51,893 nt of DNA, taken from positions 1-51,893 of the IMG/VR virus record IMGVR_UViG_3300050019_000211. One strand, given 5' to 3'. Origin of the DNA: a virus (lineage: Duplodnaviria > Caudoviricetes). The notes under the pieces were generated by a model. The model was not told the DNA's origin. It made no database searches and worked only from the letters and a program-made list of their open reading frames with translations. A program made the translations under genes and the position numbers. Position 1 is the first letter of the stretch, and the number at the start of each line of letters is the position of its first letter. This document shows positions 10,431 to 13,921 of the stretch, piece after piece.

Positions 10431-10450
10431 CGCCTAATCATTGTTAGGCG
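10431..10450 (+). other. attI-like site
   Basis: CGCCTAA-TCATT-GTTAGGC resembles the attI1 simple site (CCCTAAA-ACAAA-GTTRRRY). It lies about 20 bp from the intI start, has no attC hairpin arm before it, and marks the left boundary of the duplicated cassette. Confidence 0.8.
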
Positions 10451-10667
10451 ACAGACAGCGGTTGTGGTCGCCGGCTAGTCGCGTGGCCATTTCCTTTGTG
10501 AGTTCGCTCATTATCAGTAGTCTGTTTCCTTGTAGGACGCGCCAGCCGATATGCGGGATTTCATCGCGGCGATAGCTTTCAATTTTCCAGCGCAGTCGCC
10601 TAACAACCCGCCGGACCTGACGCGGGATACGGCTTGAGGCGAGTTTGGTTGTCTTGTTCGGTTTCAT
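10434..10667 (-). CDS. cassette A gene, hypothetical (77 aa)
   Basis: Starts in the attC R1 loop and stops (TAG) inside attI; duplicate of 12537-12818 up to SPN. Confidence 0.8.
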   Translation of the reverse strand: MKPNKTTKLASSRIPRQVRRVVRRLRWKIESYRRDEIPHIGWRVLQGNRLLIMSELTKEMATRLAGDHNRCLSPNND

Positions 10668-10696
10668 AAAGTTCAGCGCAGGTCAGCTTTTATGTT
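10443..10696 (+). repeat. direct repeat copy 1 of the 251-bp cassette (copy 2 at 12594-12847)
   Basis: Offset 2151 bp; one substitution seen (TAGTCTGTT vs TAGTCCGTT); identity starts and ends at GTT. Confidence 0.95.
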
Positions 10697-10700
10697 AGCT
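10598..10700 (+). other. attC site R1
   Basis: R'' GCCTAAC 10598-10604, spacer AACCC, GCCGGACCTG pairing with CAGGTCAGC, spacer TTTTAT, R' GTTAGCT 10694-10700. Confidence 0.9.
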
Positions 10701-11062
10701 GAAAGGCGCTTTCCACGTTTGAAGGCTTTCCAGTAGTTGTTGCTTCGGCGCTTCCATGCCGCCTTTTTTTGCGGACTGACCGCAAAGCTAGAGAAGTCGT
10801 CGCGTTTTATCATGCCCATCGCCCAGCCGCCGTTGCCCTCCATCACACATTCCGCGCCGGGGATTGCACCTTCCACGAATCCACAGCACTCGACGGCTTC
10901 CTGATACGTCAGGAAGTCGCGGCCATTTGGCCCGTCGTTTGAGTTCCCGACGAAGTAAGACAGGTCATCGTGCTTCTCGTCGCCATCCTCGTAGATGTCG
11001 GGATATTCTTTTTCCACGACACCGAGCTTTGCCTTTTTCGGCAGCCATATTTGCACTTCCAT
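10673..11062 (-). CDS. cassette B gene, hypothetical (129 aa)
   Basis: Ends ANIKADLR, which is encoded by the right arm of attC R1. Confidence 0.75.
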   Translation of the reverse strand: MEVQIWLPKKAKLGVVEKEYPDIYEDGDEKHDDLSYFVGNSNDGPNGRDFLTYQEAVECCGFVEGAIPGAECVMEGNGGWAMGMIKRDDFSSFAVSPQKKAAWKRRSNNYWKAFKRGKRLSANIKADLR

Positions 11063-11087
11063 AAGTTTGATTTTGGTTGTTGTTTTC

Positions 11088-11177
11088 AGCTAACAAATCG
11101 TTGCAGGAAACGCCTATTGGACGCCTCCAGCGAGTCCGGGAGCGCCAGATGCGGCGTTCCTGAACTCTGCGTTCGGC
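11088..11177 (+). other. attC site R2
   Basis: R'' AGCTAAC 11088-11094; GTT(G)CAGGAA(A)CGCC pairs with GGCGTTCCTGAAC; R' GTTCGGC 11171-11177. Confidence 0.92.
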
Positions 11178-11605
11178 TGCCGGATTGCGTCTCCCTTTTT
11201 TTCGTTACAAGGAGCGCACGCCAGTTGGATGTTGTCCCATTGTGTTCCGCCGCCTTTACTGCGCGGCACGATATGATCTCGCGTCATTTGTTCCGGTTCA
11301 AACGGCAGTCCGCAGATGGCACACAGTCCGTTTTGGGCGCGGTATTGGCGCATGAACATTCCACGCCCGACCAGCCATTCAGGGTTTTCGGATATGCTTT
11401 TCGGCCTTTGCATCGCCGTCAGGTTCACGAACATTTTCTCGACGAGGTGGAGTTGCATACAGGCTTTGCAGTATTCGCCGTCCTCGTTGCTGACCACCGC
11501 TACCGCGCCGCAGGACACGCAGGGCCGGCCAGCCGAACAAGCGCATGAAGCCAAAGCGGGGTGTTCCTGGACTTGGGCGGTTTGGTTGCAATTTTGGATG
11601 TTCAT
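11114..11605 (-). CDS. cassette C gene, HNH endonuclease domain protein
   Basis: CAICG...TRDHIVPRSKGG...NIQLACAPCNEKK; ATG at 11605 lies in the attC R3 loop. Confidence 0.88.
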   Translation of the reverse strand: MNIQNCNQTAQVQEHPALASCACSAGRPCVSCGAVAVVSNEDGEYCKACMQLHLVEKMFVNLTAMQRPKSISENPEWLVGRGMFMRQYRAQNGLCAICGLPFEPEQMTRDHIVPRSKGGGTQWDNIQLACAPCNEKKGDAIRQPNAEFRNAASGAPGLAGGVQ

Positions 11606-11641
11606 TTTCAATCGCCGCTTGGCTTATGCGCGACGTTCGGC
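11532..11641 (+). other. attC site R3
   Basis: R'' GCCGAAC 11532-11538; GCGCAT(G)AAGCCAA(A)GCGG pairs with CCGCTTGGCTTATGCGC; R' GTTCGGC 11635-11641. Confidence 0.92.
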
Positions 11642-11859
11642 AACTTGCCCAGAGTGCCTTTAGAGGCCCTGCACTTTGCTTCGAGTTCGGCAATATCACG
11701 GTCGCTTGGCCACATTGTCGCCTTGCGCGATTGGTATTCCCACCACTGCGCCCCTTGGACGAAGGCTATAATCAGTTCATCCGCCGTTGCCGAACAAGTC
11801 GCTGAAGAACGACGCCGAGTATTCCTGCGCTTGGGTGTTGGTTTCGATTTTGTTTGCAT
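11608..11859 (-). CDS. cassette D gene, hypothetical (83 aa)
   Basis: Start in the attC R4 loop; core AFVQGAQWWEY...WPSDR; tail PNVAHKPSGD from attC R3. Confidence 0.75.
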   Translation of the reverse strand: MQTKSKPTPKRRNTRRRSSATCSATADELIIAFVQGAQWWEYQSRKATMWPSDRDIAELEAKCRASKGTLGKLPNVAHKPSGD

Positions 11860-12540: not shown

Positions 12541-12600
12541 AGAGATTTTGTTTCAGTTGGTTGCCCGCTCACCCGGCTGTGGGTGAGCTTGGCGTTAGGC
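12477..12600 (+). other. attC site R6
   Basis: R'' GCCTAAC 12477-12483; GCTGCACCGCAACAGCCGG pairs with CCGGCTGTGGGTGAGC with bulges; R' GTTAGGC 12594-12600. Confidence 0.9.
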
Positions 12601-12818
12601 GACAGACAGCGGTTGTGGTCGCCGGCTAGTCGCGTGGCCATTTCCTTTGTGAGTTCGCTCATTATCAGTAGTCCGTTTCCTTGTAGGACGCGCCAGCCGA
12701 TATGCGGGATTTCATCGCGGCGATAGCTTTCAATTTTCCAGCGCAGTCGCCTAACAACCCGCCGGACCTGACGCGGGATACGGCTTGAGGCGAGTTTGGT
12801 TGTCTTGTTCGGTTTCAT
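12537..12818 (-). CDS. cassette G gene (duplicate of A with a different C-terminal tail, 93 aa)
   Basis: Matches A except one R/G change up to CLSPN, then AKLTHSRVSGQPTETKSL from attC R6. Confidence 0.8.
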   Translation of the reverse strand: MKPNKTTKLASSRIPRQVRRVVRRLRWKIESYRRDEIPHIGWRVLQGNGLLIMSELTKEMATRLAGDHNRCLSPNAKLTHSRVSGQPTETKSL

Positions 12819-12847
12819 AAAGTTCAGCGCAGGTCAGCTTTTATGTT
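12594..12847 (+). repeat. direct repeat copy 2 of the 251-bp cassette
   Basis: See 10443-10696. Confidence 0.95.
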
Positions 12848-12851
12848 CGGC
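12749..12851 (+). other. attC site R7 (same as R1 up to the crossover)
   Basis: R'' GCCTAAC 12749-12755; R' GTTCGGC 12845-12851. Confidence 0.9.
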
Positions 12852-13258
12852 GACATTATCCACACGGCTAGGCATTGTTTGCATTGGTGCCATTTATAGC
12901 CGCCGGTTGCGCCAAGACATTCCAGAGGCTTCATGCAGCTTGGACAGGTTCCGAGGTTCACAATCTTCTCCTGGTGGGGAGACATCATTGCAGTTTTGAG
13001 CATGTCGCCGAACAAGTCGCTGATGCCAACGTGCTTGGTTCCTGCCGTTTTGGACGCCACAGGTTGTTGACCGCCTGCCCTCGCGTTCCATTGTTCGATG
13101 GCGCTCTTCTCGTTGATACCTTCTGGGCCGGTCACGTTGCACATCGAGCACCAGACGTTTTTGCGAGGCCGCGTTGGGTAGCCGGTTTGTATGATCATCA
13201 GCATGTCACGGTCTTTTTCGCCGCACCACGGGCAGGCTATCGCATCGGTTATTTTCAT
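12824..13258 (-). CDS. cassette H gene: Lar-like (restriction alleviation) Zn-finger plus a second Zn-ribbon
   Basis: MKITDAIACPWCG...VWCSMCNVTGP....EKSAIEQWN resembles the Lar family; C-terminal CPSC...CKQC; tail PNIKADLR. Start taken at ATG 13258. Confidence 0.72.
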   Translation of the reverse strand: MKITDAIACPWCGEKDRDMLMIIQTGYPTRPRKNVWCSMCNVTGPEGINEKSAIEQWNARAGGQQPVASKTAGTKHVGISDLFGDMLKTAMMSPHQEKIVNLGTCPSCMKPLECLGATGGYKWHQCKQCLAVWIMSPNIKADLR

Positions 13259-13303
13259 ATTTTTTCTTGGTTCGACGCACGCGGCATAGCTCCGTCGTTT
13301 GAC
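13007..13303 (+). other. attC site R8, unusually long (297 bp)
   Basis: R'' GCCGAAC 13007-13013; arm GCT(G)ATGCC(A)ACGTGC pairs only with GCACGCGGCATAGC at 13277-13290; R' GTTTGAC 13297-13303. Confidence 0.8.
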
Positions 13304-13800
13304 ATCTCTTCGCATTTCTCCGGCAGCATGGCCCGGAAGCCGGTTGATTTGATGCGCTGGAATATAGTTTGCTCGCCGTTCCAGACGTAGGGCAGGAACA
13401 CTTCAGCGTATTCGGCCTGGTGCATTTGAATCATGGACATTTGGACTTCGACCCAATCTTGGATTATTTTCCACGCCGTTCGTTCCGCCTGGTCTTTGAA
13501 ATCGGCGCGTTTGAGTTTCTTCCGGCTTTGCCATTTCATCTTACCATCTTCGCCGAGGTTATCGCCGGCGTAATTCAGCCAGAGCGCGTCTTGCGCTTTT
13601 TCCACGTCGGCCGGCAGGCGCACGGTCAGCTTTGGCGTGTTGGCATCCGGCTGGATTGAGAACGTGATCGCACCGATGCCGCCAGCGGTGCTGACATATT
13701 CTTTCGTGATGCCGCTGACGCCACACTTTATCAGCACTTGCTCGATGCGATAGATGGTCTGACCCACCGGCACATTGGACGTGTAGTTTTTTAGGAACAT
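13255..13800 (-). CDS. cassette I gene, phage-type hypothetical protein (181 aa)
   Basis: KNYTSNV...QAERTAWKIIQDWVEVQM...EVFLPY; tail SNDGAMPRASNQEKI from attC R8. Confidence 0.8.
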   Translation of the reverse strand: MFLKNYTSNVPVGQTIYRIEQVLIKCGVSGITKEYVSTAGGIGAITFSIQPDANTPKLTVRLPADVEKAQDALWLNYAGDNLGEDGKMKWQSRKKLKRADFKDQAERTAWKIIQDWVEVQMSMIQMHQAEYAEVFLPYVWNGEQTIFQRIKSTGFRAMLPEKCEEMSNDGAMPRASNQEKI

Positions 13801-13823
13801 GGTTTTGAAAATTCGGCCATGAT

Positions 13824-13921
13824 GTCGAACAACGTGCCGGACCTAACCGCCGATAGCGCCTTCAGTTCTGCTTCTCGGTTGACGCGCCTTAGTCGGAGGC
13901 AGGTCAGCACAAGCGTTTTGC
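13824..13921 (+). other. attC site R9
   Basis: R'' GTCGAAC 13824-13830; GCCGGACCTAACCGCCGA pairs imperfectly with TCGGAGGCAGGTCAGC; R' GTTTTGC 13915-13921. Confidence 0.85.

What the first reader, a model, noticed from the sequence alone, without database searches (positions are those of the whole stretch)
10434..13921. Antisense cassettes: attC sites are protein-coding and act as portable stop/start junctions
Seen: every cassette ORF is opposite to the attC top strand and is read toward intI. Most start codons lie inside the cassette's own attC (613, 1361, 2085, 2335, 10667, 11605, 11859, 12540, 12818, 13258). Stops come from the neighbouring att site. At 11 of 12 intact junctions the crossover AAC is read in frame as Asn (QAN, MEN, SPN, SAN, QPN, LPN, ASN, SPN, SPN, MSN, RQN); the exception stops at TAA within R'. 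In that frame the attC supplies a stop at or near the next ATG (ATGA overlaps at 12537-12540 and 13255-13258; stop 615 / ATG 613; stop 10673 / ATG 10667; stop 11608 / ATG 11605). Inference: any cassette order gives a continuous, translationally coupled operon driven from the phage early promoter, with no Pc needed. This is the reverse of canonical integron expression logic.
Basis: partly seen in the sequence, partly recalled or inferred. Interest (0 to 1): 0.93.

Follow-up and report, generated by a model that had tools for sequence, protein, structure and literature searches.

The report
Backwards, frame-locked integron cassettes in phage
A peat-soil phage carries a genuine integron whose swappable gene cassettes are written on the opposite strand to textbook cassettes, and genes that run across the DNA swap point always do so in one reading frame, so shuffled cassettes should still stop and start correctly.

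Summary
The window is a phage contig with an integron integrase at 9456-10412(-). An attI and nine cassettes lie next to it, and a four-site attC cluster lies at 539-2369. All 13 attC sites have their top strand on +, and all cassette genes are on -. Four things support this: the side of the extrahelical bases, a class 1 integron control, the limits of a duplicated cassette, and cassette presence/absence joints in four peat metagenomes. At 11 of 12 junctions the crossover AAC is an in-frame Asn, and the twelfth gene stops at TAA in R'. I then examined 145 junctions from 30 loci. Genes crossing the junction use that frame 80 times and the other two frames 3 times. By protein cluster this is 68 of 70 (p about 4e-30). 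Genes in the other frames carry their own stop at or before R'. attC sites are closed in the Asn frame within 90 nt in 96% of cases, against 54% and 59%. That stop often overlaps the next start (ATGA). Transcription, translational coupling and use of the attC-internal starts were not tested. Five literature searches found no description. Earlier notes of this scan report the same pattern on at least eight other genomes.

The parts
9456..10412 (-). intI, integron integrase (318 aa)
   Evidence: TIGR02249 integron integrase: 265.3 bits against a cut-off of 265, matched over profile positions 2-313 of 315. Pfam Phage_integrase and Phage_int_SAM_4.
10413..10449 (-). attI region. On the - strand the core reads GCCTAAC, followed by AAT GAT TAG (frame-0 stop at 10434-10436) 21 nt before the intI ATG. 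Contains the palindrome TACACGTGTA at 10421-10430.
   Evidence: Sequence. The motif AAC-A-(A/G)-TGATT is conserved upstream of intI in most related loci. It is the left limit of the duplicated cassette.
10598..10700 (-). attC Ba, of cassette C1 (10444-10694, 251 nt). Holds the frame-0 stop at 10673-10675 and ATG 10667.
   Evidence: Covariance model R1 76.2 bits, - strand. Arms with two extra bases on the + strand AAC arm.
10434..10667 (-). ORF of C1 (77 aa). Crosses attI as S-P-N and stops at TAG in attI.
   Evidence: Same cassette as 12537-12818 but with a different C-terminal tail.
10673..11062 (-). ORF of C2 (129 aa). Crosses the junction as S-A-N and stops inside attC Ba.
11088..11177 (-). 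attC Bb, of C2 (10695-11171).
   Evidence: R1 61.9 bits.
11114..11605 (-). ORF of C3, an HNH endonuclease. Its start lies inside attC Bc. It crosses the junction as Q-P-N and stops at 11114 inside Bb.
   Evidence: Pfam HNH_5 9.4e-16 and HNH 1.3e-14.
11532..11641 (-). attC Bc, of C3 (11172-11635).
   Evidence: R1 45.7 bits.
11608..11859 (-). ORF of C4 (83 aa). Its start lies inside attC Bd. It crosses as L-P-N; its stop at 11608 lies 2 nt before ATG 11605.
11789..11898 (-). attC Bd, of C4 (11636-11892), with three extra bases.
   Evidence: R1 48.7 bits.
11880..12116 (-). ORF of C5 (78 aa). Crosses as A-S-N and stops at 11880 inside Bd.
12121..12210 (-). attC Be, of C5 (11893-12204).
   Evidence: R1 65.1 bits. 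Clean hairpin with G and A extra bases 6 bp apart on the + strand AAC arm.
12205..12540 (-). ORF of C6 (111 aa). This is the one exception: it ends with its own TAA inside R' (GCCTAA|C).
   Evidence: C6 (390 nt) is absent in a contig of run X2; the joint runs 12201 to 12592.
12477..12600 (-). attC Bf, of C6 (12205-12594). ATGA overlap at 12537-12540.
   Evidence: R1 66.7 bits.
12537..12818 (-). ORF of C7 (93 aa). C7 is a duplicate of C1. The ORF crosses as S-P-N and then takes a 17-residue tail from Bf.
   Evidence: 254-nt repeat 10443-10696 = 12594-12847.
12749..12851 (-). attC Bg, of C7 (12595-12845).
   Evidence: R1 80.3 bits.
12824..13258 (-). ORF of C8: a Lar-like restriction-alleviation domain plus a Zn-ribbon tail. 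The start lies inside the long attC Bh. It crosses as S-P-N.
   Evidence: Pfam Lar_restr_allev 2.4e-08; the domain begins at residue 8 counted from ATG 13258.
13007..13303 (-). attC Bh, of C8 (12846-13297). It is 297 nt long with an unusually long loop that holds ATG 13258.
   Evidence: The arms are complementary, with G and A extra bases. R1 gives only a partial hit, 13007-13099, 19.3 bits.
13255..13800 (-). ORF of C9 (181 aa). Crosses as M-S-N. ATGA overlap at 13255-13258.
   Evidence: codon score 34.1.
13824..13921 (-). attC Bj, of C9 (13298-13915). This is the distal end of the array.
   Evidence: R1 64.6 bits.
13843..14142 (-). Gene upstream of the array (99 aa). It reads into attC Bj as R-Q-N and stops at 13843.
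539..2369 (-). Second array without an integrase (CALIN-like). attC sites: A1 539-648, A2 1292-1381, A3 1994-2118 (R' degenerate, GTC) and A4 2266-2369 (R'' degenerate). ORFs: 2-613 (N6/N4 MTase, cut by the contig end), 615-1361 (C5 MTase), 1369-2085 and 2102-2335.
   Evidence: R1 62.6, 81.3, 48.0 and 64.2 bits, all on the - strand. Pfam N6_N4_Mtase 8.4e-07 and DNA_methylase 5e-06. phrog_363 2.6e-39.

Best explanation
This is a phage-borne integron with an ordinary platform but inverted cassettes. The integrase, the attI next to the 5' end of intI, and the attC polarity relative to intI are as in canonical integrons. The cassette genes, however, lie on the attC bottom strand. They are co-directional with intI and with the flanking phage genes.

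Read along the gene strand, each cassette runs: C of the crossover, attC, ORF, then ...RYYYAA. The attC therefore sits ahead of its own gene. It receives the 3' end of whichever gene lies upstream.

A reading-frame convention makes this workable:
- A cassette gene either ends with its own stop at or just before R' (often the TAA of RYYTAA|C), or it crosses the crossover with AAC read as Asn.
- Every attC and attI is closed in that frame within a few dozen bases.
- That stop commonly overlaps or abuts the cassette's own start codon (ATGA and similar).
- The other two frames are used by the downstream gene.

Any cassette order should then give properly terminated proteins and closely spaced genes that can be translated as one operon by read-through transcription of the phage.

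Shown here: the integrase family, the attC structure and polarity, the gene strand, the cassette limits and their variation in natural populations, the frame rule, and the frame-specific closure of the sites.

Inferred: that selection for portable termination and re-initiation maintains the rule; that transcription comes from a phage promoter upstream of 14142; that translation is coupled; and that the attC-internal ATGs are the starts in use.
For: Integrase: TIGR02249 over its full length.

Phage context: portal, protease, major head protein and DnaB. The whole assembly is this one contig.

Polarity:
- Extra bases lie on the + strand AAC arm in 13 of 13 sites, read against the rule in Nivina 2016.
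- Model R1 hits 13 of 13 sites on the - strand, with no + strand hit in the window at E up to 1.
- Class 1 control: 4 of 4 known attC places are hit on the intI1 strand, while the annotated resistance genes lie on the other strand.
- The duplicated cassette is bounded by the GTT of two + strand R' boxes.
- Contig joints in four peat metagenome runs skip 390, 702, 703 and 1093 nt. These are exactly the distances between R' positions 11892, 12204, 12594 and 13297.

Gene strand:
- Pfam or PHROG hits fall on the - strand ORFs (HNH, Lar, two MTases).
- By codon score, 85 of 118 inter-attC segments in the close clade favour the intI strand, 8 favour the opposite strand and 25 are undecided.

Frame rule, from 145 junctions in 30 loci:
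- Frame 0: 80 read through, 7 have their own stop.
- Frame 1: 2 read through, 24 end at TAA in R', 2 have their own stop.
- Frame 2: 1 reads through, 3 end at TGA in R', 21 have their own stop.
- No ORF found: 5.
- By protein cluster, 68 of 70 read-through clusters are frame 0 (binomial 4e-30). Without window members it is 60 of 62.
- Where R' has no T before AAC, read-through is 57 in frame 0 against 2 and 0.
- Viral loci with only 34-42% identical IntI give 13 read-through junctions in frame 0 and none in frames 1 or 2.

Closure, from 112 pairs of an attC and the next gene:
- First stop within 90 nt: 96% in frame 0, 54% in frame 1, 59% in frame 2.
- Stop at or before the next start: 101, 66 and 65 of 112.
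- ATGA-type overlap: 29, 10 and 7. Gap of 0-10 nt: 19, 5 and 8.

The attI motif supplies TAG/TAA or TGA in frame 0.

The same cassette (C1 = C7) carries two different tails in this genome.

Background: in class 1 arrays, translation of a cassette up to its attC raises expression of the next cassette (PMC11511950, passages).
Against: - There is no expression evidence of any kind. No RNA run was available.
- Promoter-like sites in 1-18500 are no more frequent than in shuffles: 11 against 9.4 +/- 3.4. The 'early promoter' is therefore not located.
- Shine-Dalgarno-like motifs do not mark the attC-internal starts: 8 of 66, against 20 of 150 long ORFs and 7% background.
- For the C5 methyltransferase, the Pfam domain begins only at residue 25, right after the attC. 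A later start cannot be excluded there.
- 46 of 112 first starts lie outside the attC. In 44 of 112 pairs the frame-0 stop lies more than 30 nt before the start. Coupling, if real, is therefore not general.
- 4 of 112 attC sites have no frame-0 stop within 90 nt.
- Three junctions read through in other frames. The one confident case, L010 7463, sits at a weak model hit (30.1 bits) inside a gene homologous to two longer proteins.
- 27 of the 80 frame-0 calls have weak codon scores.
- Gene calls are my own simple ORF and codon-score rules, not a trained gene finder.
- attI positions in relatives were placed by a regular expression and are doubtful in a few loci (L057, L060).
- The IntI score is only just above the curated cut-off.
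Confidence: 0.72

Rival explanations
1. The rule reflects termination safety and compaction only. Cassettes are squeezed so that the gene ends at R'. In frame 0 no stop can be built into RYYYAAC, so those genes borrow a stop, and the sites are kept closed in that frame. There is no translational coupling, and the attC-internal ATGs are often not the true starts.
For: Own stops cluster right at R', at -5 to -12 nt, and as TAA or TGA inside R'. 44 of 112 frame-0 stops lie more than 30 nt from the next start. The C5 MTase domain starts right after the attC. SD motifs do not single out the internal starts.
Against: ATGA-type overlaps and 0-10 nt gaps are three to four times more frequent with the frame-0 stop than with stops of the other frames: 48 against 15 and 15. 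The Lar domain begins 8 residues after the ATG inside attC Bh. 66 of 112 first starts are inside the attC.
Confidence: 0.2
2. The frame bias is inherited rather than selected. The cassettes share a common ancestral 3' end and attC, so the junction frame was simply copied.
For: Some families recur. One cluster of small Zn-ribbon proteins supplies 7 junctions, and 7 clusters are mixed. attC 5' arms fall into recognisable sequence types.
Against: The 140 junction ORFs fall into 119 clusters at blastp 1e-3, and 68 of 70 read-through clusters use frame 0. The rule holds in loci whose IntI is only 34-42% identical. Frame-0 stops lie at many different distances (6 to 84 nt) and use all three stop codons. 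Homologous proteins end in different ways (mixed clusters).
Confidence: 0.04
3. The polarity is misread. The cassettes are canonical (genes on the attC top strand) and only the integrase gene is turned, as in Treponema integrons.
For: The R''/R' consensus is symmetric under reverse complement. intI and the cassette genes do share a direction, as they do in Treponema (PMC3607928, passages).
Against: In Treponema, intI is transcribed toward attI. Here attI lies upstream of the intI start, and the cassettes are read toward it. Extra bases are on the + strand AAC arm in 13 of 13 sites. The class 1 control shows the same attC-to-intI geometry but the opposite gene strand. The cassette limits from the duplication and from the metagenome joints fall at + strand R' boxes, not at R'' boxes.
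Confidence: 0.02
4. The cassette genes are expressed mainly from promoters of their own inside the cassettes, not as a read-through operon, and the junction grammar is irrelevant to expression.
For: In L001, three cassettes carry good TTGACR-17-TAnnnT sites ahead of their genes (read by eye).
Against: In the window no promoter-like site lies on the - strand within 10434-13921. Spacing between genes is -4 to 51 nt, which leaves no room for promoters outside the coding sequence.
Confidence: 0.08

Closest known systems
Canonical integrons (class 1 mobile integrons; sedentary chromosomal integrons)
   Same: IntI of the integron-integrase subfamily. attI lies next to the 5' end of intI. attC hairpins have R and L boxes, an unpaired spacer and extrahelical bases. 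The attC bottom strand lies on the intI coding strand. Crossover is at G|TT. The model built from the phage sites finds class 1 attC sites.
   Different: Cassette genes lie on the bottom strand and are read toward attI and intI instead of away from it. A Pc at the attI side cannot serve them. The attC precedes its gene and is largely translated. The crossover sits inside coding sequence in one fixed frame. A newly inserted cassette would be last in the transcription unit, not first.
Treponema-type ('inverted integrase') chromosomal integrons
   Same: intI and the cassette genes have the same direction (PMC3607928, passages).
   Different: In Treponema, intI is transcribed toward attI and the cassettes lie downstream of it, with the ordinary gene-to-attC relation. 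Here the cassettes lie upstream of intI and their genes are inverted relative to attC.
Integrons and attC clusters (CALINs) reported in phage genomes (Qi et al. 2023, PMC9892861)
   Same: attC sites and integrases do occur in phage genomes. The 539-2369 array fits the CALIN idea.
   Different: That survey of 10,705 NCBI phage genomes reported 3 complete integrons and 17 CALINs. The complete integrons were a Vibrio chromosomal-integron fragment, a class 1 integron in a P1-like phage and one in a Shewanella prophage. In the abstract and the passages I read, the word 'antisense' does not occur and no frame rule is described. I could not see its supplements.
Translational effects in class 1 arrays: the short ORFs in attI1 (ORF-11/ORF-17) and the dependence of downstream expression on upstream translation (PMC11511950)
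   Same: Translation that runs up to or into the att site helps the next cassette. In most resistance cassettes the stop codon overlaps the attC (passages).
   Different: In those arrays the gene precedes its attC and stops at its beginning. No fixed frame across the crossover is described, and no start codon lies inside the attC.
Overlapping stop/start (ATGA) coupling in phage and bacterial operons (general knowledge, recalled)
   Same: ATGA and short-gap junctions lie between consecutive small genes.
   Different: Here the junction is part of a mobile recombination site and travels with the downstream gene.

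Membership tests
Integron (IntI + attI + attC cassettes) | Tyrosine recombinase of the integron-integrase subfamily, including the IntI-specific extra segment | tested here: met
   TIGR02249 265.3 bits against a cut-off of 265, covering profile positions 2-313 of 315. The margin is narrow.
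Integron (IntI + attI + attC cassettes) | attC sites: imperfect hairpins with RYYYAAC/GTTRRRY boxes, an unpaired central spacer, and extrahelical bases on the arm opposite AAC in the bottom strand | tested here: met
   13 sites. The arms were read: 2 or 3 extra bases, with first and last 6 bp apart. Model R1 scores 45-81 bits for 12 sites. The same model finds 4 of 4 class 1 attC sites.
Integron (IntI + attI + attC cassettes) | attI next to intI that serves as the insertion point | tested here: inconclusive
   A conserved AAC-A-R-TGATT motif lies 20-60 nt upstream of intI in most of the 30 loci. A copy of a cassette sits directly at it. Recombination at it was not assayed.
Integron (IntI + attI + attC cassettes) | Cassettes are discrete mobile units exchanged at G|TT of R' | tested here: met
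   A duplicated 251-nt cassette has limits at two R' boxes. Contig joints in runs X2, X3 and X4 skip exactly 390, 702, 703 and 1093 nt between R' boxes.
Integron (IntI + attI + attC cassettes) | Promoterless cassette genes on the attC top strand, expressed from Pc at the attI side | tested here: not met
   Genes are on the bottom strand. The only + strand promoter-like site in intI (9756-9784) is a chance-level match.
Integron (IntI + attI + attC cassettes) | IntI-catalysed recombination of the folded bottom strand | not testable with these tools
   Needs a conjugation or transformation assay with this IntI.
Treponema-type inverted integron | intI transcribed toward attI, with the cassettes downstream of it | tested here: not met
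   attI lies upstream of the intI ATG and the cassettes are read toward intI. The definition is taken from PMC3607928.
CALIN (cluster of attC sites lacking an integrase), for 539-2369 | Two or more attC sites with no integrase gene nearby | tested here: met
   Four R1 hits, the nearest 7.1 kb from intI. Replication genes lie between. The 4-kb distance criterion of IntegronFinder is recalled, not checked.

The most novel reading that the evidence does not exclude
Phages, here probably phages of Verrucomicrobiota, maintain their own large class of integrons with a shared 'grammar'. Cassette genes lie on the attC bottom strand. Frame 0 at the crossover is reserved for the incoming ribosome, and the other frames are used by the gene that follows. 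The attC hairpin in the mRNA would act as a gate that the terminating ribosome opens for the next start. Counter-defence and other small genes could then be shuffled within and between phage operons without ever breaking translation. On this reading the recombination site is at once DNA substrate, coding sequence and translational coupler.
Probability: 0.4. Interest if true: 0.92.

Novelty: new variant of a known kind. Interest (0 to 1): 0.86.

Why it matters
Integrons are the textbook example of a gene-capture device whose logic rests on one promoter at the insertion site and on cassettes inserted in one orientation. This phage and its relatives use the same recombination machinery with the opposite coding logic. 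The cassettes are embedded in a phage operon and read toward the integrase. A codon-phase rule at the crossover makes every permutation translatable.

If the rule is selected, it would be a rare natural case of a modular, frame-aware genetic 'connector'. It would also explain how phages can hold a rapidly exchangeable stock of small genes inside tightly packed operons. In this window that stock includes two DNA methyltransferases, a Lar-like restriction-alleviation protein and an HNH nuclease.

It also bears on how cassettes arise and on how attC sites tolerate being translated. It gives annotators a concrete rule as well: in such arrays, look for genes on the attC bottom strand and expect starts inside the hairpin.

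Tried and rejected
- A naive search for complementary RYYYAAC...GTTRRRY pairs plus folding, and a hand-written arm-pairing scanner, gave mostly noise. I dropped both in favour of a covariance model.
- A second MAFFT alignment of 8 sites (A2) was worse than the first (A1) and was not used. In A1 two sites (Bc, Bd) are misaligned on the 5' arm. The model still finds them.
- The first automatic frame call mistook downstream genes with spurious upstream extensions for read-through in frames 1 and 2. I corrected this by requiring at least 35 codons upstream of the junction.
- I tested whether the unpaired spacer of the attC provides a Shine-Dalgarno site. It does not: core SD motifs are rare everywhere in these phages.
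- The promoter and terminator scan was at chance level and does not locate the driving promoter.
- RNA evidence: no RNA holder is listed among the 20 runs that hold the stretch.
- Megablast of 24 kb of the window against deposited phage genomes found no match.
- Circularity: there is no terminal repeat, and the first ORF is cut by the contig end.
- Synteny around intI is poorly conserved: DnaB relatives occur in 9 loci at varying positions. I therefore did not use it.
- The joint 10447 to 10603 comes from the look-alike attC of the second array (its loose end matches 2350-2380) and was set aside.
- The joint 11891 to 12220 (328 nt) does not match a cassette length exactly and is unexplained.
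- Rows dropped before counts: L005 (integrase cut, negative coordinates); L023 and L025 (duplicates of L014 and L021); also L045 and L038 (duplicates of L043 and L037). The junctions of the window's second array were not in the 145 because they lie beyond intI. I checked them by hand.
- Only 40 of the 80 genome loci (L053-L092) were searched with the model. L093-L132 were not examined.
- Supplementary files of the papers were closed. Tables of Qi et al. 2023 that list attC and gene strands could bear on the claim that the pattern is undescribed.

Full report
**What the window is.** The assembly holds only this 51,893-nt contig. It encodes a portal protein, a head maturation protease, a major head protein and a DnaB-type helicase. 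It has no near relative among deposited phage genomes. It has no terminal repeat, and its first ORF is cut by the contig end. Nearly all long ORFs between 1 and 38,000 lie on the - strand.

**The platform.** The ORF 9456-10412(-) is an integron integrase. It matches TIGR02249 at 265.3 bits against a curated cut-off of 265, over the whole profile, and it has the usual Pfam integrase domains. Directly upstream of its ATG lies a short attI-like region. On the gene strand its core reads GCCTAAC followed by AAT GAT TAG. The motif AAC-A-(A/G)-TGATT recurs at the same place upstream of intI in most related loci.

**The attC sites and their polarity.** Thirteen sites were defined from the sequence.
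- Each has an RYYYAAC-type box and a GTT box, a 5-7 nt spacer and a 3-bp L box.
- Each also has two or three unpaired bases, first and last 6 bp apart, followed by a longer stem.
- In all 13 the unpaired bases lie on the arm that carries AAC when the + strand is read.
- Passages of Nivina et al. 2016 state that extrahelical bases lie on the AAC arm in the top strand and opposite it in the bottom strand. The + strand is therefore the top strand, and the - strand, which carries the genes, is the recombined bottom strand.

I built a covariance model of the - strand form from 11 sites. It hits all 13 sites on the - strand and nothing on the + strand of the window at E up to 1.

As a control I fetched two class 1 integrons. 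The model hits the four known attC places on the intI1 strand (E 1.8e-6 to 0.012). The annotated genes dfrA17, aadA5, arr-3 and aac(6')-Ib lie on the other strand. The attC-to-intI geometry of the phage is therefore canonical. Only the genes are turned.

**Cassette limits.** A 254-nt repeat (10443-10696 = 12594-12847) begins at the GTT of one + strand R' box and ends at the GTT of the next. This is what a cassette cut at G|TT should look like.

Twenty peat metagenome runs hold the stretch. In four of them, from four study codes, contigs join across the array and skip 390 nt (X2), 1093 nt (X3), and 702 and 703 nt (X4). These are exactly the distances between the R' boxes at 11892, 12204, 12594 and 13297. 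One, two or three cassettes are therefore present or absent in natural populations, with limits at the predicted crossover. One further joint (328 nt, X6) does not fit a cassette length. One (155 nt) comes from the look-alike site of the second array.

**The genes.** The - strand ORFs fill the cassettes. Several have family matches:
- an HNH nuclease and a Lar-like restriction-alleviation protein;
- an N6/N4 and a C5 DNA methyltransferase in the second array.

Gaps between consecutive ORFs in the main array are -4 to 51 nt. No - strand promoter-like or terminator-like site lies within 10434-13921, but the scan as a whole is at chance level.

Reading, 11 of 12 intact junctions have the crossover AAC as an in-frame Asn codon. 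The twelfth gene (12205-12540) ends with the TAA of GCCTAA|C. Ten of 13 first in-cassette start codons lie inside the cassette's own attC. In the Asn frame the next site gives a stop 6 to 72 nt after AAC. In six cases that stop overlaps the next ATG or lies within 7 nt of it (613, 1361, 10667, 11605, 12540, 13258, plus the duplicate at 12818). The duplicated cassette ends ...SPNND next to attI, and ...SPN plus 17 other residues next to attC Bf. This shows directly that the tail comes from the neighbour.

**Relatives.** The integrase finds 51 viral contigs and many genome contigs. The closest genome contigs (52-73% identity) are mostly from Verrucomicrobiota metagenome bins. This gives a tentative host.

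The model finds 130 sites in 47 viral loci, 125 of them on the intI strand. It finds 24 sites in 40 genome loci, 22 on the intI strand. Nearly all used sites lie upstream of intI. A codon-usage score was trained on long ORFs of these loci. By this score, 85 of 118 inter-attC segments in the clade with at least 47% identical IntI favour the intI strand, 8 favour the opposite strand and 25 are undecided.

**The frame rule in the larger set.** I classified 145 junctions (119 attC, 26 attI) from 30 loci, after dropping two duplicate loci and one truncated locus.

| Frame | Read through | Stop inside R' | Own stop upstream |
|---|---|---|---|
| 0 (AAC = Asn) | 80 (53 with clear codon support) | - | 7 |
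| 1 | 2 | 24 (TAA) | 2 |
| 2 | 1 | 3 (TGA) | 21 (mostly 5-11 nt before AAC) |

Five junctions had no ORF.

- Where the base before AAC is not T, so that frame 1 is not closed by TAA, read-through is 57: 2: 0.
- Clustered by blastp at 1e-3, the 140 ORFs form 119 clusters. Of these, 68 read through in frame 0, one in frame 1 and one in frame 2 (binomial p about 4e-30). Clusters without any window member give 60 of 62.
- The one confident exception lies at a weak model hit inside a gene homologous to two longer proteins, so that site is doubtful.
- Viral loci whose IntI is only 34-42% identical show 13 frame-0 read-throughs and none in the other frames.
- Eight sites in six bacterial chromosomal-type loci mostly have no same-strand ORF at all (6 of 8), as expected for ordinary integrons.

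**The sites are closed in that frame.** I examined 112 pairs of an attC and the next gene.
- The first stop after AAC falls within 90 nt in 96% for frame 0, 54% for frame 1 and 59% for frame 2.
- The stop lies at or before the next gene's first start in 101, 66 and 65 cases.
- It overlaps that start in the ATGA manner in 29, 10 and 7 cases. It lies 0-10 nt before it in 19, 5 and 8 cases.
- This holds even where the present upstream gene has its own stop. The frame-0 stop is therefore a property of the attC itself.
- First starts lie inside the attC in 66 of 112 pairs. They are spread over the 5' arm and the apical part.

**How it most likely works.** The platform inserts and excises cassettes as any integron does. 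Because the genes lie on the bottom strand, each attC sits ahead of its gene and behind the previous one.

The data fit a convention in which frame 0 across the crossover belongs to the incoming gene and is always closed soon after. The other two frames are left to the following gene, so genes that end in those frames must bring their own stop. Any order of cassettes then yields terminated proteins with short neighbour-dependent tails, and closely spaced genes.

That the array is transcribed by read-through from upstream phage genes is inferred from gene direction, tight spacing and lack of room for promoters. That the terminating ribosome helps the next start is inferred from the same layout and from the ATGA overlaps. 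Work on class 1 arrays shows that translation of a cassette up to its attC raises expression of the next one (PMC11511950, passages), which makes such selection plausible.

Evidence is lacking for the promoter, for coupling and for the starts. SD motifs do not help. The C5 methyltransferase domain begins only after the attC, whereas the Lar domain begins right at the ATG inside an attC.

**Comparison with what is known.**
- Typical integrons have divergent intI and cassettes.
- Treponema-type integrons have intI transcribed toward attI, with the cassettes downstream (PMC3607928, passages).
- The present order is a third arrangement: cassette genes, then attI, then intI, all in one direction, with genes inverted relative to attC.
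- Qi et al. 2023 reported 3 complete integrons and 17 attC clusters among 10,705 phage genomes. In the abstract and passages I read, they do not mention antisense genes or a frame rule.
- Five full-text searches found no description of it. Supplements were closed.

**Earlier notes of this scan.** Notes of this scan on at least eight other genomes give the same reading. They are not independent evidence. I tested the claims here on this window and on loci I fetched myself.

**Verdict.** The expression mechanism is plausible but untested. I file it as a new variant of a known kind of system, of high interest.

Noticed in passing
window 13007-13303: attC Bh is 297 nt long. Its loop holds the start and the Lar-like domain of the cassette's own gene. 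A contig of run X3 joins 13031 to 13280 (skips 248 nt; weak, 20 letters on the shorter side). This may be a variant without the loop.
   Followed up: partly
window 10413-10449 and the 80 nt upstream of intI in L001-L055: The attI region is conserved as AAC-A-(A/G)-TGATT. Closer to the intI ATG many loci share TGTTCG(T/C)ATAT. The window instead has the palindrome TACACGTGTA (10421-10430). These are possible regulator sites for intI.
   Followed up: no
L001 5790-5830, 6390-6420, 8430-8465: Three cassettes of the closest viral relative carry strong sigma-70-like sites (TTGACR, 17 nt, TAnnnT) ahead of two-gene units, pointing in the gene direction. Some cassettes therefore bring their own promoter.
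   Followed up: no
L001 6025-6270, 6686-6847, 9116-9304 and four other loci: A recurrent family of small Zn-ribbon proteins with an RW...M(T/S) motif supplies 7 of the 140 junction ORFs (largest cluster). It often forms the second gene of a two-gene cassette. Function unknown.
   Followed up: no
window 2102-2369: The junction between the third and fourth cassettes of the second array is degenerate (GTC instead of GTT, and GGAC instead of AAC in R''). The gene 2102-2335 ends in a shifted frame with its own TGA. This cassette may no longer be mobile.
   Followed up: partly
window 1-613: The contig ends inside an N6/N4 DNA methyltransferase cassette gene (Pfam match to profile positions 1-167 of 221). 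The second array may therefore continue beyond the window.
   Followed up: partly
L053-L062: The closest integrase relatives in genome collections are on contigs of Verrucomicrobiota (Limisphaerales, Verrucomicrobiia) metagenome bins. One is in a 928-kb contig (L062). This suggests the host phylum and possibly prophage or chromosomal copies.
   Followed up: no
L043, L044, L046: Viral contigs whose integrase is only 34-42% identical have the same same-strand genes and frame-0 crossing. The pattern is thus wider than one integrase clade.
   Followed up: partly
window 9756-9784 (+): A promoter-like site (TTGCCA, 17 nt, GATATT) lies inside intI and points toward attI, the position of Pc in class 1 integrons. 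It is a 9-of-12 match, in a scan that finds no more sites than shuffles do.
   Followed up: no
window 12185-12199 (-): attC Be keeps a GAGG-6 nt-ATG motif like the start modules of other attC sites, but the frame closes after four codons, and the cassette's gene starts only at 12116. It looks like a vestigial start.
   Followed up: no
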